Source of the DNA: Candidatus Bipolaricaulota bacterium
GTDB lineage: Bacteria > Bipolaricaulota > Bipolaricaulia > Bipolaricaulales > Bipolaricaulaceae
DNA length: 32,000 nucleotides
Direction: 5' to 3'
NCBI GenBank assembly: GCA_025060415.1
Contig: JANXBT010000001.1
Location: 36,313 to 68,312 of the forward strand
Shown here: one piece after another, positions 4,293 through 21,628 of the stretch
Numbering within the stretch: position 1 is the first letter of the stretch
Layout: each line of letters starts with the position of its first letter
Translations under genes and position numbers: made by a program
Notes under the pieces: generated by a model
Databases searched by the model: none
What the model was told of the DNA's origin: nothing
What the model saw: only the letters and a program-made list of their open reading frames with translations

Positions 4293-5396
4293 CTAAATGA
4301 TGGCCCGCTCCGTGTCCCGGTCGAAGAGGTGCATGTGCTCCAGGAGGGCCACGAAGGTCACCTCCTGGCCGGGCGCGAGGGAAAGGCGCGGGTCCAGTTT
4401 GGCCACGATCTCATCGCCCGCCACGTCGGCGTAGACGATGAGCTCGTCCCCCAGGGCCTCCCGCACCTTGACCCGGCCCAGGAAGGTCCGGCCCGGCAGG
4501 GGCTCCCGCACCGTGTCCAGGGTGCGGATGTCCTCGGGCCGGATGCCGAACACCACCTCTTTCCCCAGATAGCTGCGCACCTCCGGGGTCACCTTCTCCG
4601 GCGGCATCCAGAGCTTGAACCCCCGGCCCTGGAGCCACACCCGGCCGTCCTCCTCCACCAGGCGGACGGGCACGAAGTTCATGGGCGGGGAGCCGATGAA
4701 CCCGGCCACGAACATGTTGGCCGGCTGGTCGTAGATCACGCGCGGGCTGTCGTACTGGAGGACCTGGCCGTCCTTCATCACCGCGATGCGGTGCCCCAGG
4801 GTCATGGCCTCCACCTGGTCGTGGGTCACGTAGATGGAGGTGGTCTTGAGCCGCTGGTGGAGCTCCTGGAGCTCGGCGCGCATGCGCACCCGAAGCTTGG
4901 CGTCCAGGTTGGACAGGGGCTCGTCGAACAGGAACACCTTGGGGTTGCGCACGATGGCCCGGCCCAGGGCCACGCGCTGGCGCTGCCCGCCGGAAAGTTC
5001 CCGGGGCTTGGCCCGCAGCTTGTCGGCGATGCCCAGCATCTCCGCCACTTCCCGCACCCGCCGATCGATCTCCTTCTTGGGGACCTTGCGCAGCTTCAGG
5101 CCGAAGGCCATGTTGTTGTAGACGTCCATGTGGGGGTAGAGGGCGTAGTTTTGGAACACCATGGCGATGTCCCGGTCCTTGGGGGGGACGTCGTTCACGA
5201 GGCGGCCGCCGATGTAGATCTCGCCCTCCGTGACCTCCTCCAGGCCGGCGATCATGCGGAGGGTCGTGGTCTTGCCGCAGCCCGAAGGCCCCACCAGCAC
5301 CACGAACTCGCCGTCCTTGATCTCCAGGGAGACCTTGTTGACCGCCACAAAATGCCCAAACTTTTTGGTCACCTCTTTGAGGACGACCTCCGCCAT
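4293..5396 (-). CDS. sugar ABC transporter ATP-binding protein (MalK/MsiK/UgpC type), stand-alone
   Basis: Walker A GPSGCGKTT, signature LSGGQRQR, Walker B VFLFDEPLS, H-loop VTHD, and a C-terminal MalK-type regulatory domain. The ORF-track start (5495) is rejected because AAGGAGG lies 6 nt upstream of ATG 5396 (MAEVVLKEV...). Confidence 0.9.
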   Translation of the reverse strand: MAEVVLKEVTKKFGHFVAVNKVSLEIKDGEFVVLVGPSGCGKTTTLRMIAGLEEVTEGEIYIGGRLVNDVPPKDRDIAMVFQNYALYPHMDVYNNMAFGLKLRKVPKKEIDRRVREVAEMLGIADKLRAKPRELSGGQRQRVALGRAIVRNPKVFLFDEPLSNLDAKLRVRMRAELQELHQRLKTTSIYVTHDQVEAMTLGHRIAVMKDGQVLQYDSPRVIYDQPANMFVAGFIGSPPMNFVPVRLVEEDGRVWLQGRGFKLWMPPEKVTPEVRSYLGKEVVFGIRPEDIRTLDTVREPLPGRTFLGRVKVREALGDELIVYADVAGDEIVAKLDPRLSLAPGQEVTFVALLEHMHLFDRDTERAII

Positions 5397-5457
5397 TCCC
5401 CGCCTCCTTTGCCCCGCTTGAGGGACAAGATACCGCTTGCCGGCCGGGCCCGCAACT

Positions 5458-5736
5458 TCAGCCCCCGCTGATGGGGGTGAAGAAGGTGAGGACATCCCCC
5501 TCGGAAAGCCTCGTGGCCAAGCCCCCGAGGTTGTTCACGTTCTGCCCGTTCAGGAACACGTGAAGGTGGTCCTTCAGCTTCTCCCCCGCGAACAGCAGGG
5601 GGCCGAGGGCGGGATGGTGCGCCACAAGGGCGCGCAGGGCCTGCAGGCAGTCCGCCCCCGCGGGGAGCTCCAAGGCCACCGCCTCCCGCCCCACCGCCTC
5701 CCGGAATTCCCCAAACAGCTTGACTTGGACGCGCAT
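5458..5736 (-). CDS. MoaD/ThiS/SAMP-like ubiquitin-fold sulfur-carrier protein (C-terminal GG)
   Basis: 92 aa: MRVQVKLFGEFREAVG...HPALGPLL...DHLHVFLNGQNV...GDVLTFFTPISGG. It is embedded as the tail of a longer alternate-frame ORF in the track. The ATG overlaps the rarA stop (TGATG) and is preceded by GAGAAGGAGGGG. Confidence 0.8.
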   Translation of the reverse strand: MRVQVKLFGEFREAVGREAVALELPAGADCLQALRALVAHHPALGPLLFAGEKLKDHLHVFLNGQNVNNLGGLATRLSEGDVLTFFTPISGG

Positions 5737-7438: not shown

Positions 7439-7448
7439 CGCCCCGCAC

Positions 7449-7524: not shown

Positions 7525-7527
7525 CCC

Positions 7528-7600
7528 GGCGAGGTAGCTCAGGTGGTAGAGCACCCGGCTGAAAACCGGGGTGTCCCCAGTTCGACTCTGGGCCTCGCCA
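7528..7600 (+). tRNA. tRNA-Phe (anticodon GAA)
   Basis: 73-nt cloverleaf. Acceptor GGCGAGG/CCTCGCC, anticodon stem CCCGG/CCGGG, loop CTGAAAA, T-loop TTCGACT. Confidence 0.9.
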
Positions 7601-7616
7601 TTTCCCTTTTCCCGGC

Positions 7617-9701: not shown

Positions 9702-9757
9702 TCCTTGCTGAAAAACCGGGCTCCGGGTATGGTTCGCGTCCTTTGGGGGTGGCAGCC

Positions 9758-11668
9758 ATGGCCAAGGTGATCCTGCCTGGAGGGGAGGCGATCGAAGCCC
9801 GGGGCGTTTCCTTCCTGGAGCTTTTGGGCCCGCGGGCGAAGGAGGCGGCCGGCGCCCTTTGGAATGGGCAGCTTCTGGATCTGCGGGAGCCGGTGCCCCC
9901 GGAGGGCGAGGTCCGGATCCTTGGCTTGCGCGATCCCGCGGCCCTGGAGGTCCTCCGCCACACCGCGGCCCACGTGTTGGCCCACGCGGTGACGCGCCTC
10001 TTCCCGGGGACGAAGTTGGCCATCGGCCCGGCCATCGCCGACGGCTTCTACTACGATTTCCTCTTCCCAAATCCGATTTCCCATGAGGATTTGCCCCGCA
10101 TCGAGGAGGAGATGCGCAAGATCGTCGCGGAGGATCTGCCCCTGGAACGGGTTTGGCTTTCCCGAAGCGAAGCGGAAAGGCTTCTGCGCGAGCGGGGGGA
10201 GGACTACAAGCTCGAGCTCCTTGGGGAGATCCCCGGGGAGAAGATCTCTTTCTATCGGCAGGGCGATTTCCTGGATTTGTGCCGCGGCCCGCACCTCCCC
10301 TCCACCGGCCTTGTAAAGCACTTCAAGCTCCTTGATCTAGCAGGCGCCTATTGGCGGGGCGATCCCAACCGCGACATGCTCACCCGCATCTACGGTACGG
10401 CCTTTCCCACCCAAGAGGAGCTGGAAAGATACCTGCGTTGGCGGGAGGAGGCGCGGCGCCGTGACCACCGAACCCTCGGCCCCCAGCTCGATCTTTTCTC
10501 CATCCAAAACGACACGATCGGGGCAGGGCTTGTCCTTTGGCACCCCAAGGGCGCCCGCGTCCGTCGCCTCATCGAGGACTTTTGGGTGGCCGAGCACTAC
10601 AAAGCCGGGTATCAGCTCGTCTACACGCCCCACATCGGCCGGAGCCGCCTCTGGCAGACCTCCGGCCACCTCGACTTCTATCGGGAAAGCATGTACGCCC
10701 CCATCGCCGTCGAAGGGCAGGAGTTTTTCCTGAAACCCATGAACTGCCCCTTCCACATCGCCATCTATAAGACGAAGACCCGGTCTTATCGCGAGCTGCC
10801 CATCCGTTACTGCGAGCTCGGCACGGTCTACCGCTTTGAGCGCTCCGGGGTCCTCCATGGGCTCCTGCGCGTGCGCGGCTTCACCCAGGACGATGCGCAC
10901 ATCATCTGCCGCCCCGATCAGGTGGAGGAGGAGATCCGCAACGTCCTGCGCTTCGCGCTCTTCGTCCTGCGCTCCTTTGGGTTTACGGAGTTCACGGCGT
11001 ACCTCTCCACGCGCCCGGAGAAGTTCATCGGCAACCCCGAGGATTGGGAAAGGGCCACGGAGGCCTTGCGCAAGGCCGTGGAGGGGGAGGGCTTGTCCTA
11101 TGAAGTCAAAGCGGGCGAGGGGGCGTTCTACGGGCCCAAGATCGATCTAGAGGTTCAGGACTCGCTGAAACGTCCCTGGCAGCTCACCACCGTCCAATTC
11201 GACTTCAACCTGCCGGAACGGTTCGACATGACCTTCATCGGGCCCGACGGCCGGGAGCATCGCCCCTACATGATCCATCGCGCCCTTTTGGGGTCGCTGG
11301 AGCGGTTCTTCGGGATCCTCATCGAACATTACGGTGGGGCCTTCCCGGTTTGGCTCGCGCCCGTACAGGCTGTGGTGTTGCCCGTAAGCGAAGGGGACAT
11401 CCCCTACGCGGAGGAGGTGGCGGCGAAACTCCTGGCGGAAGGGATTCGGGCCGAGGCCTGGACCAGGGAAGGGAAGACCCTGCGCTGGCTGGTGCGGGAG
11501 GCCCAGATTCAAAAGATCCCCTACATTTTGGTCTGCGGTGCCCGGGAGGCCGCCGAGGGCAAGGCCGCCCTCCGCCTGCGCACGGGGGAGGACCTGGGGC
11601 CTCGCCCGCTGGACGAGGTGATCGCGCGCATTCGGGAGGCCGCCTCGACCCGGTCCTCAGGGCTTTGA
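9758..11668 (+). CDS. thrS: threonine--tRNA ligase
   Basis: The ORF-track start 9509 is rejected. ATG 9758 gives MAKVILPGGEAIEA... (TGS domain). Editing-domain motif HTAAHVLAHA, class II core (FRFERSGVLHGLLRVRGFTQDDAHI, GAFYGPKIDL), and a C-terminal anticodon-binding domain. 636 aa. Confidence 0.95.
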   Translation: MAKVILPGGEAIEARGVSFLELLGPRAKEAAGALWNGQLLDLREPVPPEGEVRILGLRDPAALEVLRHTAAHVLAHAVTRLFPGTKLAIGPAIADGFYYDFLFPNPISHEDLPRIEEEMRKIVAEDLPLERVWLSRSEAERLLRERGEDYKLELLGEIPGEKISFYRQGDFLDLCRGPHLPSTGLVKHFKLLDLAGAYWRGDPNRDMLTRIYGTAFPTQEELERYLRWREEARRRDHRTLGPQLDLFSIQNDTIGAGLVLWHPKGARVRRLIEDFWVAEHYKAGYQLVYTPHIGRSRLWQTSGHLDFYRESMYAPIAVEGQEFFLKPMNCPFHIAIYKTKTRSYRELPIRYCELGTVYRFERSGVLHGLLRVRGFTQDDAHIICRPDQVEEEIRNVLRFALFVLRSFGFTEFTAYLSTRPEKFIGNPEDWERATEALRKAVEGEGLSYEVKAGEGAFYGPKIDLEVQDSLKRPWQLTTVQFDFNLPERFDMTFIGPDGREHRPYMIHRALLGSLERFFGILIEHYGGAFPVWLAPVQAVVLPVSEGDIPYAEEVAAKLLAEGIRAEAWTREGKTLRWLVREAQIQKIPYILVCGAREAAEGKAALRLRTGEDLGPRPLDEVIARIREAASTRSSGL

Positions 11669-11690
11669 TTTTGTATAATCCCCTTGGACC

Positions 11691-12458
11691 ATGGAGAAGG
11701 AGCGATACCTCAACACCTCGCTAGCGAAAGCCCTACGGGTTTTCGAGTTGTTCAACGGGGTGGAGGGGGGCTTGAGCCTATCGGAGATCGCCAGCCGCAT
11801 GGGGGCGCGTCCGGGGAGCATTTATCCCATCGTCTACACGCTACAAAAATTCGGTTATCTTGAGCGGGATGCGGAGACCAAGAAGTATCGGCTGGGCCTG
11901 CGCATTTTGGCTTTAGCCAACCAAATTTTGTCTTCTTTGGACGTTCGCGAGAAAGCCAAGCCTGTGCTGAAGCGCCTTGCGCGTGAGCTTGAGGTGAACG
12001 CACATCTTGCGGTCCTCTACGAGGGCGAGGTCTTATACTTGGATCGGGAGGAAGCTGCGCCCAGCGTGGTGATCCCTTCGGTGATTGGACGGCGGGTTCC
12101 CCCGCATTGCACCGCTTTGGGCAAGGTCTTGTTGGCTTACAGCCCGGAAGCTCTGGAGGGGTTTTTGGCCAAGGGATCCCTTCCTGCGCTTACCCCCAAC
12201 ACTATTACCAATCCGGAACTTTTGCGACGGGAGTTGGAACGGGTACGCCAGCAAGGTTATGCAATCGACTGGGAGGAATTTCACGAGGGCAACATCTGTG
12301 TGGCCGCTCCCGTGCGCAATTATCGAGGAAAGGTGGTGGCAGCGATCTCAGTTTCCTTGGCCAAGGTCCGCCTTACGCACACTCCGTTAGATAGTTTTGT
12401 GCAAGCCGTCACAAAGGGGGCGCAGGAAGTTTCGCTAGAAATGGGGTATCGCTCCTAG
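11691..12458 (+). CDS. IclR-family transcriptional regulator (KdgR-like)
   Basis: 255 aa. N-terminal wHTH (SLAKALRVFELF...LSLSEIASRMGARPGSIYPIVYTLQKFGYLERD) and C-terminal IclR effector domain (GNICVAAPVRNYRGKVVAAISVS). TGTATAAT lies at 11672-11679, just upstream. Confidence 0.9.
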   Translation: MEKERYLNTSLAKALRVFELFNGVEGGLSLSEIASRMGARPGSIYPIVYTLQKFGYLERDAETKKYRLGLRILALANQILSSLDVREKAKPVLKRLARELEVNAHLAVLYEGEVLYLDREEAAPSVVIPSVIGRRVPPHCTALGKVLLAYSPEALEGFLAKGSLPALTPNTITNPELLRRELERVRQQGYAIDWEEFHEGNICVAAPVRNYRGKVVAAISVSLAKVRLTHTPLDSFVQAVTKGAQEVSLEMGYRS

Positions 12459-12511
12459 AGCTCAGTCCTATTGGTCTTCGCCTTAAACGGTGAGGGTTTG
12501 GGGGGACAGGC

Positions 12512-12540
12512 TTGACGCCCCGGGTTTTTAATGGTATAAT
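12512..12540 (+). promoter_or_regulatory. strong sigma70-type promoter of the ABC transporter operon
   Basis: TTGACG (12512-12517), a 17-nt spacer, then TATAAT (12535-12540), with an extended -10 TG (TGGTATAAT). Confidence 0.65.
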
Positions 12541-12541
12541 A

Positions 12542-12553
12542 GTTTTGCAAAAC
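12542..12553. promoter_or_regulatory. perfect 12-bp palindrome GTTTTGCAAAAC, candidate IclR operator
   Basis: The sequence is its own reverse complement. It begins 2 nt after the -10 hexamer and so covers the expected transcription start. Confidence 0.5.
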
Positions 12554-12577
12554 AGCTAAATTGCTGGGAGGTGGGTG

Positions 12578-13909
12578 ATGAACCGCGTAAAGAGGTTCTG
12601 GTTGTTTTTAGCATTCGTTACTTTTGCTGTCCTAGGTAGTGCACAAAAGGTTACCATCGTCCTTTCCAACTGGCACTTGGTTGAACCGCACTGGGAGAAG
12701 TCCATCAAGGAAGCGGTAGCTGAGTTTATGCGCCGCAACCCTGATATCGAGGTCGTTTTAGACTACGTTTCGTACGCCGAGAAGGAAACCAAGTATATGA
12801 CCGCAATCGAGGCTGGGGTCGGGCCTGACGTCATGCACCTCGGTCCCGCGGAGATCTCGTTTGGCTTGTTTGCTAGCCGCGGATACTTCTATGATCTTAC
12901 CCCCTTCATCGCTCGGGAGGAGCCAGGCTTCTTGGACGCATGGTACCCCGCGGTGGTTCAGGCCCTCACGTACAACGGCAAGATCTACGCGTTGGGCAAC
13001 AACTATCAGCCTATGGTCCTTATGTGGAACAAACGCCTCTTCGCTGAGGCTGGGCTCGATCCTGAAAAGCCACCGGCCACGTGGGATGAGTTCCTTGCTT
13101 ACGCGAAGGCCCTGACCCGGGATCGCGATGGGGATGGGCGCATCGACACCTGGGGGTTTGGCACTGTGGGGCGCGTGGATCCCGGCTTCCAGCTTCGTTT
13201 CACCCCCGTGCTTTATAGCTTTGGAGCCGACTATTTGACTCCCGATCTGCGGTGCGCCGCCATCAACAGCCCTGCCGCCAAAGAAGCGGTGAAGTTCTGG
13301 GTGGAGCTCTACACCGTTCACGGAGTGATCCCTCCGGGCGTGACCGACATGAGCCCCGGCAAGGTGCGGGAGCAATTCGCGGCGGAAAAAATTGCGATGA
13401 AGATCACCTCGGCTTGGAACTTGCCCATCGTGCGGACCCTCCGTCCGGAGCTCCCTTGGGCGGAGATCATCGGTGTGGCCCCCATACCCGTGAAAAGGGG
13501 CCTGGATCCTGAATACCGTACCACCGCCTTCCTCAGCTACTACGCGATGAACCGCAACACCAAGCATCCTGAGGCCGCTTGGCGCCTGCTGAAGTTCCTG
13601 ACAAGCAAAGAGGCTCAGGAGAAATGGTTCCGGGATGCCTACGTGCTCTCGGCGCGTCGGGATGTGTCGGAGCAATATGAGCCTCTCCTGGCCGATCCCT
13701 ACGCTCGGGCGATCGCTGCGGCGCTCCCCACGGCCAAGATGGTGCCTATGATCCCGGAGTGGCCGCAGATTATCGAGGCCATCAATGTGGCGGTGCAGAA
13801 AGGGTTCATCGGCGAGCCCATCGATCGGGCCTGGGCTGAGGCTTATCGTAAGATCAACGAGATCCTGGAGCCTTATCGCCCGCGGGGCGCGGCTTGTCCG
13901 CCCTACTAA
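12578..13909 (+). CDS. ABC transporter extracellular solute-binding protein, family 1 (CUT1 sugar/oligosaccharide type)
   Basis: 443 aa with a signal peptide (MNRVKRFWLFLAFVTFAVLGSAQK) and no lipobox Cys. Overall MalE/UgpB-like pattern. GGAGGTG lies 4 nt upstream of ATG 12578, whereas the track start GTG 12575 is too close to the SD. Confidence 0.9.
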   Translation: MNRVKRFWLFLAFVTFAVLGSAQKVTIVLSNWHLVEPHWEKSIKEAVAEFMRRNPDIEVVLDYVSYAEKETKYMTAIEAGVGPDVMHLGPAEISFGLFASRGYFYDLTPFIAREEPGFLDAWYPAVVQALTYNGKIYALGNNYQPMVLMWNKRLFAEAGLDPEKPPATWDEFLAYAKALTRDRDGDGRIDTWGFGTVGRVDPGFQLRFTPVLYSFGADYLTPDLRCAAINSPAAKEAVKFWVELYTVHGVIPPGVTDMSPGKVREQFAAEKIAMKITSAWNLPIVRTLRPELPWAEIIGVAPIPVKRGLDPEYRTTAFLSYYAMNRNTKHPEAAWRLLKFLTSKEAQEKWFRDAYVLSARRDVSEQYEPLLADPYARAIAAALPTAKMVPMIPEWPQIIEAINVAVQKGFIGEPIDRAWAEAYRKINEILEPYRPRGAACPPY

Positions 13910-13935
13910 AGACGCTGACCGAAAGGCGAAAGGAA

Positions 13936-13968
13936 AGAGGGGCTGGCTCGTCTCAGGCCAGCCCCTCT
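13936..13968 (+). other. intercistronic stem-loop between the binding-protein and permease genes
   Basis: AGAGGGGCTGGC (13936-13947) pairs perfectly with GCCAGCCCCTCT (13957-13968) across a 9-nt loop. No U-tract follows on the + strand (TGCTTAAAAAATC). Confidence 0.5.
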
Positions 13969-13993
13969 GCTTAAAAAATCTAGGTTCGGGAAC

Positions 13994-14866
13994 ATGAAAA
14001 CCAAACAGCGCTCGGTCGATTTCACGGGGTACTGGTTTATCTTGCCGTGCTTTCTCTTGCTGTTGGGTGTGCTGGGTTTTCCCATGGTCATGGCTGTGCT
14101 CAATAGCTTTGCCCCTATTTGGACTAAAGGTCTATCCAATTTCACTCTCGCTTATTATCGAAAACTCTTCAATGATCCGATTTTCTTCAACTCGCTGCTG
14201 CGTACGGTCTACTTTGTCGGAGCTACGGTGGCCTTGCATCTTGTTTTGGGGCTTTTGGTGGCCTTGGCCTTGAACAGCGCTATTCGAGCGCGGCGGTTCT
14301 TCCGTGTGGTGGCGATTTTGCCTTGGACGGTGCCTGACGTCATCGCTGGTTTGGTTTGGGCCTGCATGTACGATCCCTTAAGCGGGCTGTTGAATGACGC
14401 GCTGCATCGTCTTGGGTTGATCGCTTCCCCGGTGGAATGGCTGGCGAACCCGCGGCTGGTGATGCCTAGCGTGATTTTGGCGGATGTATGGCGGGGGTAT
14501 CCGTTCGTCATGCTCGTGCTCCTGGCGGGGCTTCAAGCCATTCCTCGGGAACAGTACGAAGCGGCCAAAGTGGATGGGGCTTCGGCCCTGCACGAGTTCC
14601 TTTACATCACTCTTCCTAACCTGAAACCCCTGATCGCGATCGCCACTATTCTAGACATCATTTGGCAGACCCGTCGTTTTGGGCTGATTTGGGTTATGAC
14701 CGAAGGAGGGCCGGCACGGGCCACGGAGATTCTTTCTGTGTTGGCGTACCGGCAATATTTTAAGTTCTTTAATTTCGAGTACGCTTCGGCCATCTCCGTG
14801 GTCTTGGCGTTGATTTTGCTTGCGATTGGGATCCCTTATATTCGGGCGATATCCCGAAGGATATGA
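13994..14866 (+). CDS. sugar ABC transporter permease (MalF/UgpA-like)
   Basis: 290 aa, about six hydrophobic helices, EAA loop EQYEAAKVDGASALHEFLYITLPNLKP. Confidence 0.9.
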   Translation: MKTKQRSVDFTGYWFILPCFLLLLGVLGFPMVMAVLNSFAPIWTKGLSNFTLAYYRKLFNDPIFFNSLLRTVYFVGATVALHLVLGLLVALALNSAIRARRFFRVVAILPWTVPDVIAGLVWACMYDPLSGLLNDALHRLGLIASPVEWLANPRLVMPSVILADVWRGYPFVMLVLLAGLQAIPREQYEAAKVDGASALHEFLYITLPNLKPLIAIATILDIIWQTRRFGLIWVMTEGGPARATEILSVLAYRQYFKFFNFEYASAISVVLALILLAIGIPYIRAISRRI

Positions 14867-15705
14867 ACATGGCGATGCGCGCGCTGTTGATTCGGGGAGG
14901 CGTTTACTTGTTCCTCTTTTTCATCCTGGTCTTCAACTTGACGCCTTTCTTTTGGATGCTTTCCACTTCTCTAAAAACTGATGCCGAGGTCCACGCCATT
15001 CCCCCCACGTGGTGGCCACGGCAGCCCACCCTGGAAGAGGGGTACAAAAAAGTTCTGATGTGGACGAACTTCCCGCGTTATTTCCTGAACAGCACCTTGG
15101 TTTCCCTGAGCGCCGCCTTTATCTCTACCCTTGTGGGCGCCTTAGCTGGGTACGGCTTTTCCCGCTTTTATTTCCCTGGGCGCAGCTTTCTGATCGGAAT
15201 ATTGCTCGCTTCTCAGATGTTGCCCGGCGTTCTCTTGGTGGGCCCGTACTTCAAGATGCTCGCAAAAATCGGCTTGTACGACAGCCACTTAGGCTTAATC
15301 TTGGCTTTCTCCACGCTCACGCTCCCGTTTAGTGCATGGATGCTGAAAGGCTTTATCGATACGGTTCCGCATGAATTGGACGAAGCCGCTTTGCTCGACG
15401 GATGCACCCGGTTGCACGCGTTCATTCGTGTGATCTTCCCTCTAATCACCCCGGGCATGGTGGCCACTGTGATCTTTGCGTTTTTGCTGGCTTGGGGCGA
15501 TCTATTGTGGGCGCTCTGTTTGACCACCACGGATTCCATGGCCACGGTGACCCTTGGGCTAAGCCGGCTCGTCACGCAATTCCGCGTTATTTGGCCGCAA
15601 TTGATGGCGGGATCGGTGATCGCTGCTTTTCCGCCCATGCTCCTTTACTTGTTTTTGCAGAAATACTTGGTTCGAGGGTTGACGGGCGGGGCGGTCAAGG
15701 AGTGA
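14863..15705 (+). CDS. sugar ABC transporter permease (MalG/UgpE-like)
   Basis: 280 aa, EAA loop ELDEAALLDGCTRLHAFIRVIFPLITPG. ATGA overlap with the upstream permease gene. Confidence 0.9.
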   Translation: MNMAMRALLIRGGVYLFLFFILVFNLTPFFWMLSTSLKTDAEVHAIPPTWWPRQPTLEEGYKKVLMWTNFPRYFLNSTLVSLSAAFISTLVGALAGYGFSRFYFPGRSFLIGILLASQMLPGVLLVGPYFKMLAKIGLYDSHLGLILAFSTLTLPFSAWMLKGFIDTVPHELDEAALLDGCTRLHAFIRVIFPLITPGMVATVIFAFLLAWGDLLWALCLTTTDSMATVTLGLSRLVTQFRVIWPQLMAGSVIAAFPPMLLYLFLQKYLVRGLTGGAVKE

Positions 15706-15714
15706 CGGGGGTGA

Positions 15715-16467
15715 ATGTTCATGCGGCTTGAGGGGAAGGTTGCGCTCGTCACAGGAGCTAGCCGAGGCATAGGAAGGGCTATCGCTCTGGCATTGGCTAA
15801 AGAGGGATGTGACGTGGTCCTCGTGGACTTGGATGAGCCCGCTGCCCAACGCGTAGCGCGGGAGGTGGAAACCCTGGGAAGGAGAGCGCTTCCGGTGAAA
15901 GCAAACGTTGCTTCCTTGGCCGACGTTCAACGAGCGGTTGCTTTGACCGTGGAAAAATTTGGAAGACTTGACATCCTCGTGAACAACGCGGGGATTATTA
16001 AGCGGGGTACGCTCGAAGATCATAGTGATGCGGATTGGGAACTCGTGATCTCCGTCAACCTGCGCGGGACTTACTATTTTTCCCGTGAGGCCGCGAAGAT
16101 CATGAAACGCCAAGGATGGGGACGCATTATTAACATTTCCTCCGTAGCCGGAAAAATTGGAGATATTACCTCAGCGCCCAGCTATGGTCCCTCCAAAGCA
16201 GCTGTGAATGCCCTGACCAAGTCGCTGGCCAGGGAGCTTGCCCCCTTTGGGATCACCGTGAACGCGGTTGCTCCTCATGCCATCGAGACGGAAATGACGG
16301 CCGAGTGGTCGGAAGAACGAAGGCGGGCCTTAATCGCACAAATTCCTTTGGGGCGCATGGGGAAGCCCGAAGAAGTAGCAGCGGCTGTGGTTTTCTTGGC
16401 GTCCCCGGAGGCCTCCTTCATTACGGGGGAGATCCTCGATGTGAACGGGGGGTATCTCATGGACTGA
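15715..16467 (+). CDS. classical SDR oxidoreductase (FabG/KduD-like), substrate unknown
   Basis: 250 aa. TGASRGIG, NNAG, and catalytic S...YGPSK. The start could be ATG 15721. Confidence 0.85.
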   Translation: MFMRLEGKVALVTGASRGIGRAIALALAKEGCDVVLVDLDEPAAQRVAREVETLGRRALPVKANVASLADVQRAVALTVEKFGRLDILVNNAGIIKRGTLEDHSDADWELVISVNLRGTYYFSREAAKIMKRQGWGRIINISSVAGKIGDITSAPSYGPSKAAVNALTKSLARELAPFGITVNAVAPHAIETEMTAEWSEERRRALIAQIPLGRMGKPEEVAAAVVFLASPEASFITGEILDVNGGYLMD

Positions 16468-16482
16468 GGTAGGTGAGGCCAG

Positions 16483-17289
16483 ATGCGCGGGTTGCGGGGG
16501 AAGGTTGCGGTGATTACTGGCGGCGGTGGAGTCCTTTGCTCGCAGATCGCGGAGTGTTTGGCTGAGGAGGGCGTGCGCATTGCCTTGTTGGACATCGCCG
16601 AGGAGAAAACGCAAGAGGCTCTACGGCGGGTGTTAGCCAAAGGAGCCGAGGGCTTGGCTTTTAGAGCGAGCGTTCTTTCCCGTGAGGATCTCATACGGGT
16701 AGCTGAACAGGTTTTGGCCTCCTTCGGTCGCGTCGATTTCCTCATTAACGGAGCCGGCGGGAATCACCCGCGCGGCACAGTTACCGACGAGGTTTCCTTT
16801 TTTGATCTTCCCGAGGATGGCGTGCGGTTCGTTTTCGACCTGAACTTTTGGGGCACATTTCTGCCTTCGCAAGTTTTCGGGAAGATTATGGCTCATCAAA
16901 AAGAAGGGGTGATTCTCAACATCGCCTCCATGAGCTCGTTCCGACCGCTGACGCGGGTCCCGGCCTACTCTGCGGCCAAAGCTGCAGTAGCCAATTTCAC
17001 CCAGTGGCTGGCCGTTTACTTGGCGCAGGAGTATTCTCCTCGGATTCGCGTGGTTGCCATCGCGCCAGGTTTTTTCTTGACCGAGCAGAACAAATATCTG
17101 CTCTTAGGTCCGCAAGGGGAGCTGACGGAACGCGGTCAGAGGATCCTCGCCCACACCCCTATGGGGCGGTTCGGGGCTCCAGTCGATCTTTGCGGTGCCG
17201 TGAAGTGGTTACTGTCGGACGAAGCGGCCTTTGTGACCGGAATTGTGCTCCCCGTGGACGGCGGGTTTTCCGCGTACGGCGGAGTTTAG
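16483..17289 (+). CDS. SDR oxidoreductase, UxuB/YjmF-like subfamily (possible hexuronate/mannonate-type oxidoreductase)
   Basis: 268 aa. TGGGGVLC glycine-rich loop, INGAGGNHP, YSAAK. From memory, the INGAGGN...FFDL...DLNFxGTFLPSQVF pattern resembles SDR-type D-mannonate oxidoreductases. Not verified by search. Confidence 0.75.
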   Translation: MRGLRGKVAVITGGGGVLCSQIAECLAEEGVRIALLDIAEEKTQEALRRVLAKGAEGLAFRASVLSREDLIRVAEQVLASFGRVDFLINGAGGNHPRGTVTDEVSFFDLPEDGVRFVFDLNFWGTFLPSQVFGKIMAHQKEGVILNIASMSSFRPLTRVPAYSAAKAAVANFTQWLAVYLAQEYSPRIRVVAIAPGFFLTEQNKYLLLGPQGELTERGQRILAHTPMGRFGAPVDLCGAVKWLLSDEAAFVTGIVLPVDGGFSAYGGV

Positions 17290-17290
17290 G

Positions 17291-18286
17291 CTAACAAGGG
17301 CGAAACCGCTCGGCCAACGCGCGGTTCACCAGCCCAACGGGCAAGAGGCCGTGAAGCGCGCGCCCGATGTCTTCTGCCAGTTTTTTACGCAGTTCCACCA
17401 AAGAGTCCTCGGAGTACCAAGCGGCGTGCGGTGACCAGAGCACTTGGGGCAAGGTCCGCAGCGGGTCTTTGGGATCAGGGGGTTCCGGATCGCTTACGTC
17501 TAAACAAGCACCCGCAAGGGTTCCGGCCTTAAGGGCCTGGAACAAAGCGTCTTTGTCGACAATTGCCCCGCGTGCCGTGTTGATTAAACACGCTGTGGGT
17601 TTCATCTTGGCCAGCGCCTCGGCGTTGAGTAAATGGCGCGTTTCCGGGGTGAGCGGGACGTGGATTGAAAGGAAATCGCTTTCGCGAAGCAAGCGTTCCC
17701 AATCAACACGCTCCACGCCTTCCGCAGCGAAACTTTCGTCGGACACATACGGATCGTAAGCGATAACCTTCAGCCCAAAAGCTTTCGCCTTACGCGCTAC
17801 GAAGCGGGCAATCTTTCCAAAACCCAAGAGGCCAAGTACCTGACCGCGCAGACGGCGCATGGGACGCCCTGTCTTCCAATCCCATTCCCCTTTGCGAATC
17901 TCTTCCGTGTAGTGGACTACTCTTCGCGCCCAAGCTAGGAGAAAAGCCATAACATGGTCCGAGACCTCCTCTTCGCAGTAAGACGGCACATTGACTACGG
18001 CAATCCCCCGTTCCGTGGCAGCCGGCACATCGATGTTGTCTACGCCGATGCCGTACCGGCCTATTACCTTGCATCGGTTCAAACCCCAAATGACGTCCCG
18101 TGTTATGGGGGCGTACTGCGAGATAAGGGCGTCGGCTTCCCGTGCTACAGCAAGGACTTCCTCAGGGGTTCGGCATTGCGCAGGCACCACTTGTGCGTTC
18201 CACTGCCTTAGCGTGTTTTCCTCGATGGATAAATCCGGATAGTTGTAGTCCGTAACTATCACCGTCCACCGCATCGGTCCAGCCAT
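17291..18286 (-). CDS. D-isomer-specific 2-hydroxyacid dehydrogenase family (CtBP/GhrB/2-ketogluconate reductase-like)
   Basis: 331 aa. NAD site GLLGFGKIARFVARKA, INTARGAIVD, and a catalytic HAAW region. The start could be ATG 18274. The stop lies 1 nt from the convergent SDR stop. Confidence 0.85.
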   Translation of the reverse strand: MAGPMRWTVIVTDYNYPDLSIEENTLRQWNAQVVPAQCRTPEEVLAVAREADALISQYAPITRDVIWGLNRCKVIGRYGIGVDNIDVPAATERGIAVVNVPSYCEEEVSDHVMAFLLAWARRVVHYTEEIRKGEWDWKTGRPMRRLRGQVLGLLGFGKIARFVARKAKAFGLKVIAYDPYVSDESFAAEGVERVDWERLLRESDFLSIHVPLTPETRHLLNAEALAKMKPTACLINTARGAIVDKDALFQALKAGTLAGACLDVSDPEPPDPKDPLRTLPQVLWSPHAAWYSEDSLVELRKKLAEDIGRALHGLLPVGLVNRALAERFRPC

Positions 18287-18297
18287 GGTGTGGGCGC

Positions 18298-18326
18298 TTT
18301 ATACTTTAAAAGGCCTGTTTTGTCAA
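18298..18326 (-). promoter_or_regulatory. consensus-like promoter for the 2-hydroxyacid dehydrogenase gene
   Basis: Read on the minus strand: TTGACA (18326..18321), a 17-nt spacer, then TATAAA (18303..18298). The ATG at 18286 would leave only a few nt of leader and there is no SD. Confidence 0.55.
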
Positions 18327-18345
18327 GGGCAAAAGGAGGCTAGAA

Positions 18346-19113
18346 GTGTTGCGGCTTGACTTGACGGGAAAAGTCGCCATAGTGACCGGGGCGGGCGGGG
18401 GGCTGGGGCGGGCAATGGCCCTTGGTCTGGCGCAAGCCGGGGCCGCTGTGGTTCTGGTGGGCCGTTCTGGGTTGGGTCTTGAGGAAACCCTCCGAGAAAT
18501 CCAGGCCTTGGGTCGTCCGGGCTTGGCCCTGCGCGCTGATGTTGCCATCCGAAATGAGACGAAGCGTGTGGTCCAAACCGCGCTGGAACGCTTTTCCCGC
18601 GTGGACATCGTGGTGAATGCCGCCGGGGTTAACCGGCGCATCCCCTCGCTCGAGGTGCGTGAAGAGGACTGGGATTGGATTCTGGGGGTAAACCTTAAAG
18701 GGACGTTCTTTATGTGTCAAGCCGCGGGAGAGGTGATGCTGCGCCAGAGAGCAGGGAGCATTATTAATGTCGCCTCGCTTCTTTCCGAAGTAGGGATACC
18801 CACGCTGGCTCCGTACGCGGCTTCGAAAGCAGGGGTGGTCGGGCTCACCCGCGTATTGGCCGCGGAATGGGGGCCTTATGGGGTCCGGGTGAACGCGATA
18901 GGGCCGGGCTACTTCCGTACACGGATGACGGAGCCTTTGTTCAGCGACCCCCACTGGGTGGCAAGGCTTCTGCAGCAAGTACCATTAGGGCGTGCCGGGA
19001 TACCTGAGGATTTGGTGGGAATCACGGTTTTTCTGGCCTCCGACGCGTCGGCCTACCTCACCGGACAAGTGATCTACGTGGATGGCGGCTACTTATGCGC
19101 CCGCCCGGCCTAG
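18346..19113 (+). CDS. SDR oxidoreductase, KduD/gluconate-5-dehydrogenase-like
   Basis: 255 aa. TGAGGGLG, NAAG, YAASK, and a W..ILGVNLKGTFF pattern. AAGGAGG lies 6 nt upstream of GTG 18346. Confidence 0.85.
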   Translation: MLRLDLTGKVAIVTGAGGGLGRAMALGLAQAGAAVVLVGRSGLGLEETLREIQALGRPGLALRADVAIRNETKRVVQTALERFSRVDIVVNAAGVNRRIPSLEVREEDWDWILGVNLKGTFFMCQAAGEVMLRQRAGSIINVASLLSEVGIPTLAPYAASKAGVVGLTRVLAAEWGPYGVRVNAIGPGYFRTRMTEPLFSDPHWVARLLQQVPLGRAGIPEDLVGITVFLASDASAYLTGQVIYVDGGYLCARPA

Positions 19114-19136
19114 GTTTTTTCTAAAACAAACAAAGA

Positions 19137-19164
19137 TTGACTAAAACGTAGAATGGGATATAAT
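19137..19164 (+). promoter_or_regulatory. candidate promoter upstream of (or within the annotated 5' end of) eda
   Basis: TTGACT (19137-19142), a 16-nt spacer, then TATAAT (19159-19164). The -10 lies downstream of ATG 19153 but upstream of GAGGAGG (19171-19177) and the in-frame TTG 19183. Confidence 0.45.
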
Positions 19165-19827
19165 GCTTTTGAGGAGGGAAAGTTGCGCGAGGTATTGGCG
19201 GACGAGGAGATCAAGCGTACAGGCGCTATCGGGATAATTCGTATACGTACGGCAGAGGACCTGGTAAGAATAGCCGAGGCCCTCCACGCTGGGGGGCTTT
19301 TATGCATCGAGATCACGATGAACACCCCGGGGGCGTTGCAGGCCATCGAACAGGCCCGGGAACGCCTCCCCACCGTGGTGCTGGGGGCCGGCACGGTCCT
19401 CGACGGGGTGACCGCGCGGGAGGCGGTTCTGGCCGGAGCCCAGTTCTTGGTGACCCCGACCGTCAGGCTGGACGTCCTAGAAGTGGCTCATAGGTACGGC
19501 ATCCCTGCTATCATCGGCGCGATGACCCCCACGGAGATCCTCACCGCTTGGGAGGCCGGGGCCACCATGGTCAAGGTTTTCCCCGCTTCGGTCCTCGGGC
19601 CGCGGTACCTCCAAGAGGTGCGCGGGCCTTTGCCCCAAATCCCGCTCGTGCCCACGGGCGGCATCACAGCCGAAAACGCGGCGGAATTCATTCGCGCTGG
19701 GGCCGTAGCTGTCTGCGCCGGGTCCTGGCTTATTGATAAACAGGCCATCGCCGAGGGGCGATACGAGGTGCTCACGGAGCGCGCACGTCGCCTGGTGGAG
19801 GCGGTCCGGAAGGCCCGCGAATCTTGA
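19153..19827 (+). CDS. eda: 2-dehydro-3-deoxyphosphogluconate (KDPG) / KHG aldolase
   Basis: Pattern IGIIRIRTAEDLVRIAEALHAGGLLCIEITMNTPGAL...GAGTV...FLVTP...G...VKVFPA...PTGGI is typical of the Eda family, including the Schiff-base Lys context VKVFP. The true start may be TTG 19183 (SD-supported). Confidence 0.85.
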   Translation: MGYNAFEEGKLREVLADEEIKRTGAIGIIRIRTAEDLVRIAEALHAGGLLCIEITMNTPGALQAIEQARERLPTVVLGAGTVLDGVTAREAVLAGAQFLVTPTVRLDVLEVAHRYGIPAIIGAMTPTEILTAWEAGATMVKVFPASVLGPRYLQEVRGPLPQIPLVPTGGITAENAAEFIRAGAVAVCAGSWLIDKQAIAEGRYEVLTERARRLVEAVRKARES

Positions 19828-19844
19828 ATTCCCAAGGAGGCGGT

Positions 19845-20834
19845 ATGGGGTACGACCTTGTGACCTTCGGGGAGACGATGATCCGGCTTTCCCCTCCCCA
19901 CTTCCAGCGCTTGGAGCAGGCCACGTCCTTCGACGTCAACGTCGGGGGGGCCGAGCTCAACGTGGCCGTGTCCGCCCAGAGGTTAGGGCTTCGCTGCGCC
20001 TACGTAACCCGGCTCACCGATAACCCCTTGGGCCGCATGATCGCCAACAAGGCCCGCGAGCACGGTGTGGACGTTTCTCACATCCTCTGGACCAAAGAGG
20101 ATCGGGTTGGGCTTTACTTCGTGGAGTTCGGCGCCAGCCCCCGCGCCAGTTCCGTCCTCTACGACCGGGCCCACTCCGCAATGGCGAGGATCAAGCCCGG
20201 CGAGGTGAACTGGGATCGCGTGTTCGAGGGAGCCCGGGCGTTCCACACCACGGGGATCACCCCCGCCCTCTCCCCTTCCGCCGCGGAGGCCACCAAAGAG
20301 GCGGTGCGAAAGGCCAAGGAAAAAGGGGTGTTGGTCTCCCTCGACCTCAACTACCGTGCGCGCCTGTGGAGCCCTGAGGAAGCCCGGCGGGTGATGACCG
20401 AGCTCGTCTCCCAGGCGGACATCCTCATCACCACCGAAGAGGATGCGGAACGGGTGTTCGGGGTGAAGGAAGGGTCCTTTGAGAAGATGGCGGAACGGCT
20501 GGGGCAGATGTTTGGCAACCTGAAGGTTGTGGCCGTCACGATCCGGGAAACGCCCTCCGTGTGGCGCAACACGTGGACGGCCTTGGCCTACAGCGCAGGC
20601 CGGATCCTTCGCGGCCCGGTTTTTGACGTGGAAATTGTGGACCGCGTGGGAGCAGGCGACGCCTTCGCCGGCGGATTCCTCTACGGCTACCTCACCAAAG
20701 ACGTGGAGGCCGGGCTCCAATACGGGGTGGCCCTCTCCGCGCTGAAGCAGACCAACCCCGGGGACCTCGTCTGGGCCACCAAAGAGGAGTGCGAACGGAT
20801 CCTGGCCGGAGCGGGGTTGCGGATCGTGCGCTGA
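19845..20834 (+). CDS. kdgK: 2-dehydro-3-deoxygluconokinase (PfkB family)
   Basis: 329 aa. GGAELNVAV, the [15 protein letters not shown] pattern and [20 protein letters not shown] lies 4 nt upstream of ATG 19845, so the track start at 19824 (TTG) is rejected. Confidence 0.85.
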
Positions 20835-20844
20835 GGAGAAGGGG

Positions 20845-21588
20845 ATGAGGATCGTTCGCTTTGGCCGGGGAAGCTGGGGTGTGGTGGAAGGGGAAGTGGT
20901 GCGCGTCACCCGTGGGCCAGGCGGGAGCTTCACAAGGAAGCGCCTCCCCCTCGCGGAGGTGCGGCTCCTCCCCCCCACCAAGCCCACCAAGATCGTCTGT
21001 GTGGGGCGCAACTACCGCCGGCACGCGCAGGAGATGGGCGAGGAGGTGCCCAAGGAGCCCGGGCTCTTCCTCAAGGCCCCGAATGCGCTGGCGGCGCCGG
21101 GCTCGATCCTCCCCTATCCTTCCTTCACGCACAGCCTTCACTACGAGGGCGAGCTCGCGGTGGTGGTGGGCAAAAGGATGCGCCGCGTCTCCGAGGACAA
21201 AGCCCTCGCGTATGTTCTTGGCTACACATGCGCCCTGGACCTCACCGCCCGCGATGTGCAAAAGACCGATCTCCAATGGATTCGCGCCAAGTCCGCCGAT
21301 GGGTTTTGCCCCCTTGGCCCCTGGGTGGAGACGGACGTCGCCCCGTTTGACTTGCGCTTGCGCACCTTCGTGAACGGCGAGGTGCGCCAGGATGCCCGCA
21401 CTTCGGCCATGATCTTTTCCATTCCCTTCCTGCTCGCGTACGTCAGCTCGTTCATGACGCTCGAGCCCGGGGATGTCCTCCTCACGGGCACCCCGGAGGG
21501 GGTGGGCGAGCTGAAGCCGGGCGATGAGGTGGCCGTAGAGATCGAGGGCATCGGGAGGCTTTCCGTTCGCGTCGCCCCCGCCTCCTGA
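20845..21588 (+). CDS. fumarylacetoacetate hydrolase (FAH) family protein (hydratase/decarboxylase/diketo-acid hydrolase type)
   Basis: 247 aa. [43 protein letters not shown] and [13 protein letters not shown] are hallmark FAH-domain blocks. AGGAGAAGGGG sits upstream. Confidence 0.85.
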
Positions 21589-21628
21589 CCGGGGGCCCGT
21601 TGTCGGTAAAATTCGCCCTCGTTCGGCC

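What the first reader, a model, noticed from the sequence alone, without database searches (positions are those of the whole stretch)
11669..19300. About 7.6 kb of markedly lower GC embedded in a high-GC chromosome: probable acquired catabolic island with no mobility genes
Hand-counted 60-nt lines give 40-55% GC inside the block (lines 12601, 14041, 16081, 17701, 18661). Outside they give 62-82% (lines 1081, 8101, 25201). The drop starts within a few bases of the thrS stop, and composition recovers about 150 nt into eda. The block carries eight functionally linked genes: IclR, a binding protein, two permeases, three SDRs and one 2-hydroxyacid dehydrogenase. Its promoters are near consensus (TTGACG-17-TATAAT, TTGACA-17-TATAAA, TTGACT-16-TATAAT) and its GGAGG ribosome sites are strong. 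Both are much clearer than anything in the high-GC flanks. I see no integrase, transposase, flanking direct repeat or tRNA at either edge, so the insertion mechanism is not evident. thrS and eda-kdgK-FAH look compositionally intermediate.
Basis: seen in the sequence. Interest (0 to 1): 0.7.

Follow-up and report, generated by a model that had tools for sequence, protein, structure and literature searches.

The report
Low-GC sugar-acid operon beside thrS
The low-GC stretch is real and holds a regulated sugar or sugar-acid uptake and breakdown operon, but it is an ordinary exchangeable locus found at this same spot in related uncultured Bipolaricaulota, not a foreign element newly inserted here.

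Summary
Observation confirmed. Window 11669-19300 is 56.7% GC (GC3 0.61-0.73), against 69-72% (GC3 0.90-0.96) in the flanks. GC3 change points lie at the thrS stop and about 40 codons into eda.

Interpretation partly supported. The organism is an uncultured Bipolaricaulota/Bipolaricaulaceae bacterium, and the block starts 2.6 kb from oriC (dnaA-dciA-thrS). The same arrangement occurs in at least 3 NCBI MAGs and 3 Logan assemblies, so it is not a chimera.

The block is not a foreign insertion between thrS and eda. The thrS-iclR junction is conserved in six relatives. The order SBP-permease-permease-SDR-SDR-2HADH-SDR-eda-kdgK(-FAH) recurs in relatives at 49-65% GC, and every close homologue is from Bipolaricaulota. 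Other relatives lack the block (thrS then FAH in L008), or carry different modules or IS genes there. Transporter-gene similarities also contradict the thrS similarities.

Best reading: a long-standing flexible locus whose lower-GC DNA is exchanged within the phylum by homologous recombination across conserved flanks. That explains the missing mobility genes and the edge inside eda. Timing and donor are unresolved. It is ordinary and of low interest.

The parts
11669..19300 (.). Low-GC block: 56.7% GC, GC3 0.61-0.73.
9758..11668 (+). thrS (threonine-tRNA ligase, 636 aa as called in L081). This is the conserved left flank. Its GC3 stays at 0.80-0.87 up to its stop codon.
   Evidence: TIGR00418 scores 694 bits against a cut-off of 384. 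Gene call in L081. GC3 profile.
11691..12458 (+). IclR/KdgR-type regulator, GC3 0.66. The extended -10 TGTATAAT at 11671-11678 lies right after the thrS stop.
   Evidence: HTH_IclR and IclR_C domains. It is below every NCBIfam equivalog cut-off. Sequence read.
12512..12540 (+). Promoter-like site TTGACG-17-TATAAT (11 of 12, with TG) ahead of the transporter genes.
12542..12553 (.). Perfect palindrome GTTTTGCAAAAC just after the -10 hexamer. Candidate operator of the IclR regulator (inferred).
   Evidence: The pattern GTTTT-N0-8-AAAAC occurs only twice in the window, against 0.06 expected.
12575..13909 (+). Sugar-type ABC transporter solute-binding protein of the SBP_bac_1 family. The likely start is the ATG at 12578, giving 443 aa.
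13994..14866 (+). ABC permease 1 (MalF/UgpA-like).
14863..15705 (+). ABC permease 2 (MalG/GlcU-like).
15715..16467 (+). SDR1, in the glucose-1-dehydrogenase/FabG-like subfamily.
   Evidence: NF005559 scores 265 bits against a cut-off of 215. PDB hits.
16483..17289 (+). SDR2, in the D-mannonate oxidoreductase (UxuB-type) subfamily.
   Evidence: NF006132 scores 365 bits against a cut-off of 281. Best PDB hit 4wuv.
17291..18286 (-). D-isomer 2-hydroxyacid dehydrogenase of unassigned specificity.
18298..18326 (-). Promoter-like site TTGACA-17-TATAAA for the 2-hydroxyacid dehydrogenase gene. It lies in the divergent region shared with SDR3.
   Evidence: 0 expected by chance. Sequence read.
18346..19113 (+). 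SDR3, KduD/gluconate-5-dehydrogenase-like. The best solved relatives are Thermotoga maritima 1vl8 and KduD 4z9y.
   Evidence: It scores below the KduD equivalog cut-off (253 against 339).
19114..19127 (.). Inverted repeat GTTTTTTCTAAAAC upstream of the eda promoter. Second candidate operator (inferred).
19137..19164 (+). Promoter-like site TTGACT-16-TATAAT for eda-kdgK, followed by GAGGAGG and the TTG start at 19183.
19183..19827 (+). eda (KDPG/KHG aldolase). The GC3 change point near 19305 lies inside it, so the right edge of the block is within this gene.
   Evidence: TIGR01182 scores 199 bits against a cut-off of 156. Change point. Gene call.
19824..20834 (+). PfkB kinase, KDG/KDGal-kinase-like, GC3 0.84. 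It belongs functionally to the operon but compositionally to the flank.
   Evidence: The best NCBIfam hits are KDG/KDGal kinases, all below their cut-offs.
20845..21588 (+). FAH-family hydrolase/isomerase. It is a core gene: in relative L008 it directly follows thrS.
4293..5495 (-). MalK/UgpC-type ABC ATPase in the high-GC core. It is the probable energiser of the ATPase-less transporter in the block (inferred).
   Evidence: NF008653 scores 478 bits against a cut-off of 432. Pfam ABC_tran, OB_MalK and TOBE_2.

Best explanation
What it does. The block is an IclR-regulated operon for uptake and breakdown of a carbohydrate or sugar acid. It encodes a sugar-type binding-protein-dependent ABC importer that has no ATPase of its own and probably uses the MalK-type ATPase at 4293-5495. 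Three short-chain dehydrogenases and a 2-hydroxyacid dehydrogenase would convert the substrate towards 2-keto-3-deoxy-gluconate or -galactonate. The adjacent KdgK-like kinase and Eda aldolase would then split that into pyruvate and glyceraldehyde-3-phosphate. The exact substrate is unknown.

Where it sits. It occupies a long-standing variable locus immediately downstream of thrS, 2.6 kb from oriC, in Bipolaricaulaceae. In this clade the locus holds interchangeable sugar-acid modules. Their DNA is usually lower in GC than the host core.

How it got its composition. The modules move between lineages of the same phylum by homologous recombination. The conserved neighbours serve as the homology arms: thrS and iclR on the left, eda, kdgK and FAH on the right. 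That is why there is no integrase, no tRNA target and no direct repeat. It is also why the right compositional edge lies inside eda. In this roughly 70% GC lineage, a copy at about 57% GC stands out sharply.

Shown versus inferred. Shown: the composition, the edges, the gene identities, the conserved position, the presence/absence among relatives, and the disagreement among gene similarities. Inferred: recombination as the mechanism, the direction and age of transfer, the operator sites and the substrate.
For: - Composition and edges.
- Gene functions.
- Host identity: thrS relatives and source names are all Bipolaricaulota.
- Real structure: window proteins occur in at least 3 NCBI MAGs with colinear accession numbers. 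Independent contigs L081 (99.43% over 20.8 kb) and L082 (99.98%, spanning both edges) carry the same arrangement.
- Conserved position: thrS-iclR adjacency in L002, L003, L007, L013, L086 and L168. Full gene order through eda-kdgK-FAH in L085, L086/L087, L164 and L166.
- Variable content: L008 has thrS followed directly by FAH. L005 has other genes after thrS. L007 and L013 have an extra Liv-type transporter and a creatininase. L168 has a different transporter and a galactonate dehydratase. IS genes flank the cluster in L165-L167.
- Lateral exchange inside the phylum: L013 versus L086/L166 is 92-93% identical in perm2 and 81-82% in the binding protein, yet 69% in thrS.
- Composition of cluster copies: they range from 49% to 65% GC. 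Some match the thrS beside them (L013, and nearly L007). Others are far below it (L086, L168, the window).
- Likely source type: the block's oligonucleotide signature is closest to a 58% GC Bipolaricaulota relative, L004 (delta* 41, r 0.90), not to its own flanks.
- Taxonomy of homologues: all binding-protein hits that carry a source name at 66% identity or above are Bipolaricaulota. Chloroflexota appear only at 57% or below.
Against: - No donor was found. Nucleotide identity to every sampled relative is 78% or less across the cluster, with no step at either edge.
- Protein similarity to the nearest cluster copies does not change across the GC edge in eda. L164 Eda is 89% identical on both sides, and L085 KdgK is 88%.
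- The left GC step is shared with the closest lineage, L168. The iclR genes have GC3 0.64 and 0.66, with symmetric synonymous differences of 30 versus 28. So iclR at least was not imported recently, and the pattern could reflect a stable regional composition.
- The genome-wide GC distribution of this organism could not be examined. Only 24 kb of non-block sequence was available.
Confidence: 0.6

Rival explanations
1. Vertical inheritance with a locally lower compositional equilibrium. The locus has been at this site since the common ancestor of the clade. It stays GC-poor because accessory, weakly expressed, presence/absence-polymorphic DNA experiences less GC-biased gene conversion or weaker selection than the core.
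For: - The step at the thrS stop is shared by the window, L168 and L086.
- The iclR similarities match the thrS similarities.
- Window and L168 iclR have the same GC3 (0.66 and 0.64) despite 78 synonymous third-position differences, and these are symmetric in direction.
- The window's cluster is as far from L085/L164 (76-91% amino-acid identity) as its core genes are from other relatives (84-95%).
Against: - L013 and L007 carry the cluster at the composition of their own thrS.
- The transporter-gene similarities contradict the thrS similarities.
- A change point inside a single gene, eda, is hard to obtain from regional mutation bias.
- Nearly identical cluster copies differ strongly in GC3. 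L086 versus L166 are 95% identical in the binding protein, yet perm2 GC3 is 0.45 versus 0.59.
Confidence: 0.22
2. Classical genomic island. Foreign DNA from another phylum was inserted between thrS and eda by a mobile element whose integrase and att sites have since been lost.
For: - Strong compositional deviation with sharp edges.
- The block is absent from some relatives.
- A 19-nt imperfect direct repeat (16 of 19) lies near both edges, at 11579-11597 and 19246-19264.
- A tRNA cluster lies 4 kb away.
Against: - The thrS-iclR junction and the whole gene order are conserved in relatives.
- All close homologues are from Bipolaricaulota.
- No integrase or transposase was found among the window ORFs scanned.
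- By my estimate the 19-mer has roughly a 0.1 probability of arising by chance. Both copies encode R-T-G/A-E-D-L within conserved coding sequence.
- The tRNAs are not at an edge.
Confidence: 0.06
3. Assembly or binning artefact. The contig is a chimera that joins two co-occurring Bipolaricaulota populations of different GC through conserved genes.
For: - The source is a metagenome.
- One related MAG, GCA_039630565.1, does contain two versions of thrS-iclR.
- The contig of relative L006 breaks inside thrS.
Against: - Both junctions are spanned by independent assemblies from different samples: L081 at 99.43% and L082 at 99.98%, plus L083 and L084.
- Three NCBI MAGs have colinear protein accession numbers from dnaA to SDR2.
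- SNPs against L081 are spread over both the block and the flanks.
Confidence: 0.03

Closest known systems
Flexible genomic islands replaced by homologous recombination between conserved core flanks, as described for variable loci of marine bacteria and for capsule and O-antigen loci. This comparison is from my own knowledge and was not checked in the literature here.
   Same: The chromosomal position is fixed between conserved genes. Content varies between close relatives. There are no integrase or att sites. The composition is lower in GC than the core. One edge lies inside a conserved gene.
   Different: The cargo is a catabolic operon rather than a surface-structure locus. The locus sits 2.6 kb from oriC. 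Recombination is inferred from composition and synteny and was not demonstrated with a donor.
KdgR (IclR-family)-controlled hexuronate/KDG regulon of Thermotoga maritima and Enterobacteria: KdgR, UxuB, KduD, KdgK, KdgA/Eda and oligogalacturonide ABC transporters. The regulon description is from my own knowledge.
   Same: Shared components are an IclR-family regulator, a UxuB-type SDR (above the NF006132 cut-off), a KduD-like SDR whose best solved relative is T. maritima 1vl8, a PfkB KDG-type kinase, the Eda aldolase and a sugar-type ABC importer.
   Different: No UxaC, UxuA, KduI or any lyase or hydrolase is in the window. The regulator is below the KdgR equivalog cut-off (149 against 275). 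SDR3 is below the KduD cut-off. There is an extra SDR and a 2-hydroxyacid dehydrogenase. The substrate is unknown.
Semi-phosphorylative Entner-Doudoroff / DeLey-Doudoroff sugar-acid route: sugar 1-dehydrogenase, dehydratase, KDG/KDGal kinase, then KDPG/KDPGal aldolase.
   Same: SDR1 and SDR3 pass the glucose-1-dehydrogenase subfamily cut-off. The kinase's best matches are bifunctional KDG/KDGal kinases. The sister locus L168 carries a galactonate dehydratase (542 bits against a cut-off of 311).
   Different: No lactonase or dehydratase is encoded in this window, so the route cannot be completed from what is seen here.
Classical tRNA- or integrase-associated genomic islands.
   Same: Both show a compositional anomaly, accessory distribution and a coherent metabolic cargo.
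   Different: No integrase, no att repeats and no tRNA at an edge. The locus is native to the clade.

Membership tests
Classical (integrase/tRNA-type) genomic island | Base composition and oligonucleotide signature deviate from the host. | tested here: met
   GC is 56.7% against 69-72%. Tetranucleotide r is 0.73-0.82 against 0.92-0.98 among flanks.
Classical (integrase/tRNA-type) genomic island | An integrase, recombinase or transposase within or beside the island. | tested here: not met
   The block is filled by the eight annotated genes, and the flank ORFs scanned are housekeeping. IS genes occur only in relatives' loci.
Classical (integrase/tRNA-type) genomic island | Insertion at a tRNA/tmRNA gene with flanking direct repeats. 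| tested here: not met
   The tRNAs are at 7093-7600, not at an edge. The only edge repeat is a 16-of-19 match inside coding sequence, compatible with chance.
Classical (integrase/tRNA-type) genomic island | Best homologues come from a taxon other than the host. | tested here: not met
   All binding-protein hits that carry a source name at 66% identity or above are Bipolaricaulota, Acetothermia or Bipolaricaulaceae.
Flexible locus exchanged by homologous recombination | The same chromosomal position between conserved genes in several relatives. | tested here: met
   thrS-iclR adjacency in six relatives. FAH and downstream genes are colinear in L008. The left flank is colinear in L001, L002, L005, L006 and L008.
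Flexible locus exchanged by homologous recombination | Content differs among close relatives, through presence/absence or alternative cassettes. | tested here: met
   L008 and L005 lack the block. L007 and L013 have an extra Liv-type transporter and creatininase. L168 has a different transporter and a galactonate dehydratase.
Flexible locus exchanged by homologous recombination | The history of the cargo genes disagrees with that of the flanking core genes. | tested here: met
   L013 versus L086 is 92% in perm2 and 81% in the binding protein, against 69% in thrS. This rests on pairwise identities, not a formal tree test.
Flexible locus exchanged by homologous recombination | A recombination breakpoint is identifiable, with the donor allele recognised. 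| tested here: inconclusive
   There is a sharp GC3 change point inside eda at about 19305. No sampled relative shows a matching jump in identity.
KdgR-type KDG/hexuronate operon | An IclR-family regulator equivalent to KdgR. | tested here: inconclusive
   HTH_IclR and IclR_C domains are present. The KdgR model NF011671 scores 149 bits against a cut-off of 275.
KdgR-type KDG/hexuronate operon | KDG kinase and KDPG aldolase. | tested here: met
   Eda passes TIGR01182 (199 against 156). The kinase is PfkB and its top hits are all KDG/KDGal kinases, though below equivalog cut-offs.
KdgR-type KDG/hexuronate operon | Enzymes that generate KDG: UxaC/UxuB/UxuA, or KduI/KduD, or a sugar-acid dehydratase. 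| tested here: inconclusive
   The UxuB-type SDR2 passes NF006132 (365 against 281). KduD-like SDR3 is below its cut-off (253 against 339). No isomerase or dehydratase was found among the window ORFs scanned. The rest of the genome was not available.
Binding-protein-dependent sugar ABC importer (MalEFGK type) | An SBP_bac_1 binding protein, two BPD_transp_1 permeases and a MalK-type ATPase. | tested here: met
   The binding protein and permeases are in the block. The ATPase is not in the block, but a UgpC/MalK-type gene lies at 4293-5495 (478 bits against 432). Their pairing is inferred.

The most novel reading that the evidence does not exclude
The locus downstream of thrS, next to oriC, may be a clade-wide, vertically held compartment. 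It would keep its own much lower GC equilibrium, 10-20 points under the core in the window, L086 and L168, over long divergence. A possible cause is that presence/absence-polymorphic DNA escapes GC-biased gene conversion. That would make it a natural within-genome control for what drives high GC in these uncultured thermophile-associated bacteria.
Probability: 0.15. Interest if true: 0.45.

Novelty: new member of a known kind. Interest (0 to 1): 0.2.

Why it matters
The practical value is in annotation. The block marks a carbohydrate or sugar-acid utilisation trait that varies between closely related Bipolaricaulota populations. It also shows that gene exchange in this uncultured phylum can proceed without mobile-element genes. 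The reading corrects the idea of a foreign insertion. It does not open a new question. The only wider angle is the use of such loci to study how GC content is maintained.

Tried and rejected
- Donor search. Sliding nucleotide identity of the window was computed against L085, L087, L088 and L091 across the cluster, and against L002, L003, L007 and L086 across dnaA-thrS-iclR. No segment exceeds 78% in the cluster and there is no step at either edge.
- Test for a recombinant eda. Eda similarity to L164 and L085 is the same on both sides of the GC edge.
- Flanking repeats. The 19-mer D10 lies at both edges. I judged it chance, at roughly 0.1 by my binomial estimate, and both copies are coding.
- tRNA target. 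None lies at an edge.
- Chimera. Rejected on the evidence of independent assemblies.
- The AT-rich 2.8-kb spacer in L086. It has no long ORFs and no homology to the Liv-type transporter, creatininase or IS genes of other relatives.
- L168 as a test of discordance inside the block. Only a 66-aa perm2 fragment was available. It is 80% identical to the window, against 91% for window versus L085, and it sits in a decayed neighbourhood. The result is inconclusive.
- Substrate from solved structures. The best binding-protein hit is only E = 9e-33 (5ci5), with no ligand inference possible.
- Literature. One search and one paper (PMC9992828) gave nothing on GC heterogeneity or this operon.
- Rfam. Only the tRNAs were found.


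Full report

Yes. The stretch 11669-19300 is 56.7% GC. The left 9.5 kb is 69.2%, thrS is 65.7%, 19301-22525 is 65.1%, and the right 9.5 kb is 72.1%. Taken as 60-nt lines, the block averages 0.567 (sd 0.066) and the outside 0.707 (sd 0.062).

Third codon positions show the contrast best. GC3 is 0.61-0.73 in the eight block genes. It is 0.83-0.84 in thrS, kdgK and FAH, and 0.90-0.96 in the other flank genes.

The edges are sharp. GC3 stays at 0.80-0.87 to the end of thrS and falls in iclR. It then rises from 0.67 to 0.83 at about 19305. The real start of eda is the TTG at 19183, which follows GAGGAGG and matches the independent gene call in L081.

The tetranucleotide and dinucleotide signatures of the block also differ from all flank segments. 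Correlation is 0.73-0.82 against 0.92-0.98, and delta* is 90-158 against 46-107.

**2. What is encoded?**

- an IclR-family regulator;
- an SBP_bac_1 binding protein and two permeases;
- SDR1 and SDR3, both above the cut-off of the glucose-1-dehydrogenase subfamily;
- SDR2, above the cut-off of the D-mannonate oxidoreductase subfamily;
- a D-2-hydroxyacid dehydrogenase on the opposite strand.

After the block come Eda (above the TIGR01182 cut-off), a PfkB kinase whose best matches are KDG/KDGal kinases, and an FAH-family protein. SDR3's best solved relatives are Thermotoga maritima 1vl8 and the KduD structure 4z9y.

The transporter has no ATPase gene of its own. A UgpC/MalK-type ATPase is encoded in the high-GC core at 4293-5495.

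An inverted repeat GTTTT-N2-4-AAAAC occurs only twice in the window, against 0.06 expected. One copy follows the -10 of the transporter promoter and the other precedes the eda promoter. A looser version lies in the divergent 2HADH/SDR3 region. I take these as candidate IclR operators. This is an inference.

**3. Whose genome, and is the assembly sound?**

The thrS relatives at 69-91% identity are all Bipolaricaulota/Acetothermia MAGs. The window's own proteins are named Candidatus Bipolaricaulota or Bipolaricaulaceae in at least 3 NCBI MAGs. Their accession numbers run colinearly from DnaA to SDR2.

Independent contigs carry the same arrangement. L081 matches at 99.43% over 20.8 kb. L082 matches at 99.98% and spans both edges. 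L083 and L084 match as well. SNPs against L081 are spread over both block and flanks. A chimera is therefore very unlikely.

**4.

The left flank (GreA, a class II tRNA synthetase, PAP2, an aminotransferase, MalK-type ATPase, MgsA, six tRNAs, DnaA, DciA, ThrRS) is colinear with L001, L002, L005, L006 and L008 at 84-96% protein identity.

What follows thrS varies between relatives:
- In L008, thrS is followed directly by FAH and then by the window's downstream genes. It therefore lacks iclR through kdgK, and also orf298.
- In L005, thrS is followed by unrelated genes.
- In L002, L003, L007, L013, L086 and L168, thrS is followed within 22-50 nt by iclR.

The complete order SBP-perm-perm-SDR1-SDR2-2HADH(-)-SDR3-eda-kdgK(-FAH) recurs in L085, L086/L087, L164 and L166. 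Variants of it occur in L088, L090, L091 and L165. Some relatives have extra modules between iclR and the binding-protein gene: a Liv-type transporter and creatininase in L007 and L013, and IS genes in L165-L167. L168 has another transporter plus a galactonate dehydratase.

So the block is the local version of a variable locus that is native to this clade. It is not an insertion into a naive thrS-eda junction.

**5. Taxonomy of the best hits**

The binding protein's homologues are its own 99% cluster, then 88% (L164), then 66-78%. Those that carry a source name at 66% identity or above are all labelled Bipolaricaulota, Acetothermia or Bipolaricaulaceae. Chloroflexota appear only at 57% or below. 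Island and flanks thus point to the same phylum.

**6. History**

Several facts argue for lateral exchange within the phylum.
- *Disagreeing similarities.* The thrS and iclR similarities agree, with L013 at 64-70% to all others and those others at 79-88% to each other. The transporter genes group differently: L013 is 92-93% (perm2) and 81-82% (binding protein) identical to L086/L166.
- *Range of compositions.* Cluster copies range from 49% to 65% GC. In L013, and nearly in L007, they match the composition of the host's thrS. In L086 they do not (thrS 57-63% GC, then 35-55%). In L168 they do not (thrS GC3 0.82, iclR 0.64, then 42-48% GC). In the window they do not either.
- *Similar copies with different composition.* L086 and L166 are 95% identical in the binding protein, yet perm2 GC3 is 0.45 versus 0.59.
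- *Signature of the block.* It is closest to a 58% GC Bipolaricaulota relative, L004 (delta* 41, r 0.90).

Homologous recombination across the conserved neighbours would move such DNA without mobility genes and would leave an edge inside eda. This is my preferred mechanism, at a confidence of 0.6.

**7. What weakens a 'recent import into this genome'**

- No sampled relative shows a jump in nucleotide identity at either edge.
- Eda and KdgK are as similar to L164 and L085 outside the block as inside it.
- The left step is shared with the nearest lineage, L168, at 87.7% nucleotide identity. The iclR genes there have the same GC3 (0.64 versus 0.66) and symmetric synonymous differences.

So the low-GC state, at least of iclR, predates this species. 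A stable regional composition remains a live rival (0.22). Against that rival stand the cluster copies that match their host's thrS in L013 and L007, the disagreeing transporter similarities, and the mid-gene edge.

A classical foreign island (0.06) and an artefact (0.03) are unlikely.

**8. Function**

The parts fit a route that imports a sugar or sugar acid, interconverts it by dehydrogenases to KDG or KDGal, phosphorylates it and cleaves it. It resembles the KdgR-controlled hexuronate/KDG regulon, and also the semi-phosphorylative Entner-Doudoroff / DeLey-Doudoroff route. The galactonate dehydratase in the sister locus L168 supports the second comparison.

No dehydratase, isomerase or lyase was found among the window ORFs scanned, and solved structures give no ligand. 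The substrate is therefore open.

**9. Verdict**

This is a new example of a well-known kind of feature: a flexible, compositionally deviant catabolic locus. It sits in a poorly known phylum, and its interest is low.

Noticed in passing
window 8956-9111 (with dnaA 7617-8942 and dciA 9198-9701): Five DnaA-box matches (TTATCCACA, at most 1 mismatch) cluster in 156 nt between dnaA and dciA. Six matches occur in the whole window, against 1.6 expected. The cumulative GC-skew minimum is at about 10.5-11 kb, and gene orientation switches here. This is very probably oriC, so the variable locus begins only 2.6 kb from the origin.
   Followed up: partly
window 7093-7600: Six tightly packed tRNA genes (Lys-CTT, Lys-TTT, Glu-TTC, Val-TAC, Asp-GTC, Phe-GAA) lie directly upstream of dnaA.
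   Followed up: no
window 11579-11597 and 19246-19264: An imperfect 19-nt direct repeat (16 of 19), CGCACGGGGGAGGACCTGG and CGTACGGCAGAGGACCTGG, lies near both edges of the block, 7667 nt apart. Both copies are coding (R-T-G/A-E-D-L, in ThrRS and Eda). I estimate roughly a 0.1 probability by chance.
   Followed up: partly
window 21629-22525: orf298 is a 298-aa protein with only a weak match to the transmembrane region of ligand-gated ion channels (PF02932, below cut-off) and no NCBIfam hit. Its GC3 is 0.90. It is absent from relative L008, where FAH is followed directly by the Zn-dehydrogenase gene.
   Followed up: no
L086 2800-5600: A 2.8-kb AT-rich stretch (35-54% GC) lies between iclR and the binding-protein gene. 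It has no ORF over 105 aa and no similarity to the Liv-type transporter, creatininase or IS genes found at that place in other relatives. It looks like decayed DNA.
   Followed up: partly
L168 (GCA_039630565.1, JBCNUT010000065.1) 1-11067: This sister-lineage version of the locus has thrS, then iclR (92.5% identical), followed by 42-48% GC DNA. That DNA has long ORF-free gaps, a different sugar-type ABC transporter (35-40% identical) and a galactonate dehydratase. The same MAG also holds the exact window iclR, so it mixes two related populations.
   Followed up: partly
L165 388-729; L166 4950-6967; L167 4895-6913: IS-type genes (DUF4096 plus DDE_Tnp_1) sit next to the homologous cluster in relatives, at 63-69% GC inside otherwise 47-58% GC surroundings. 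None is present in the window.
   Followed up: no
window 11671-11691: An extended -10 element, TGTATAAT, lies 3 nt after the thrS stop and only 12 nt before the iclR ATG. This suggests a leaderless or very short-leader iclR transcript.
   Followed up: no
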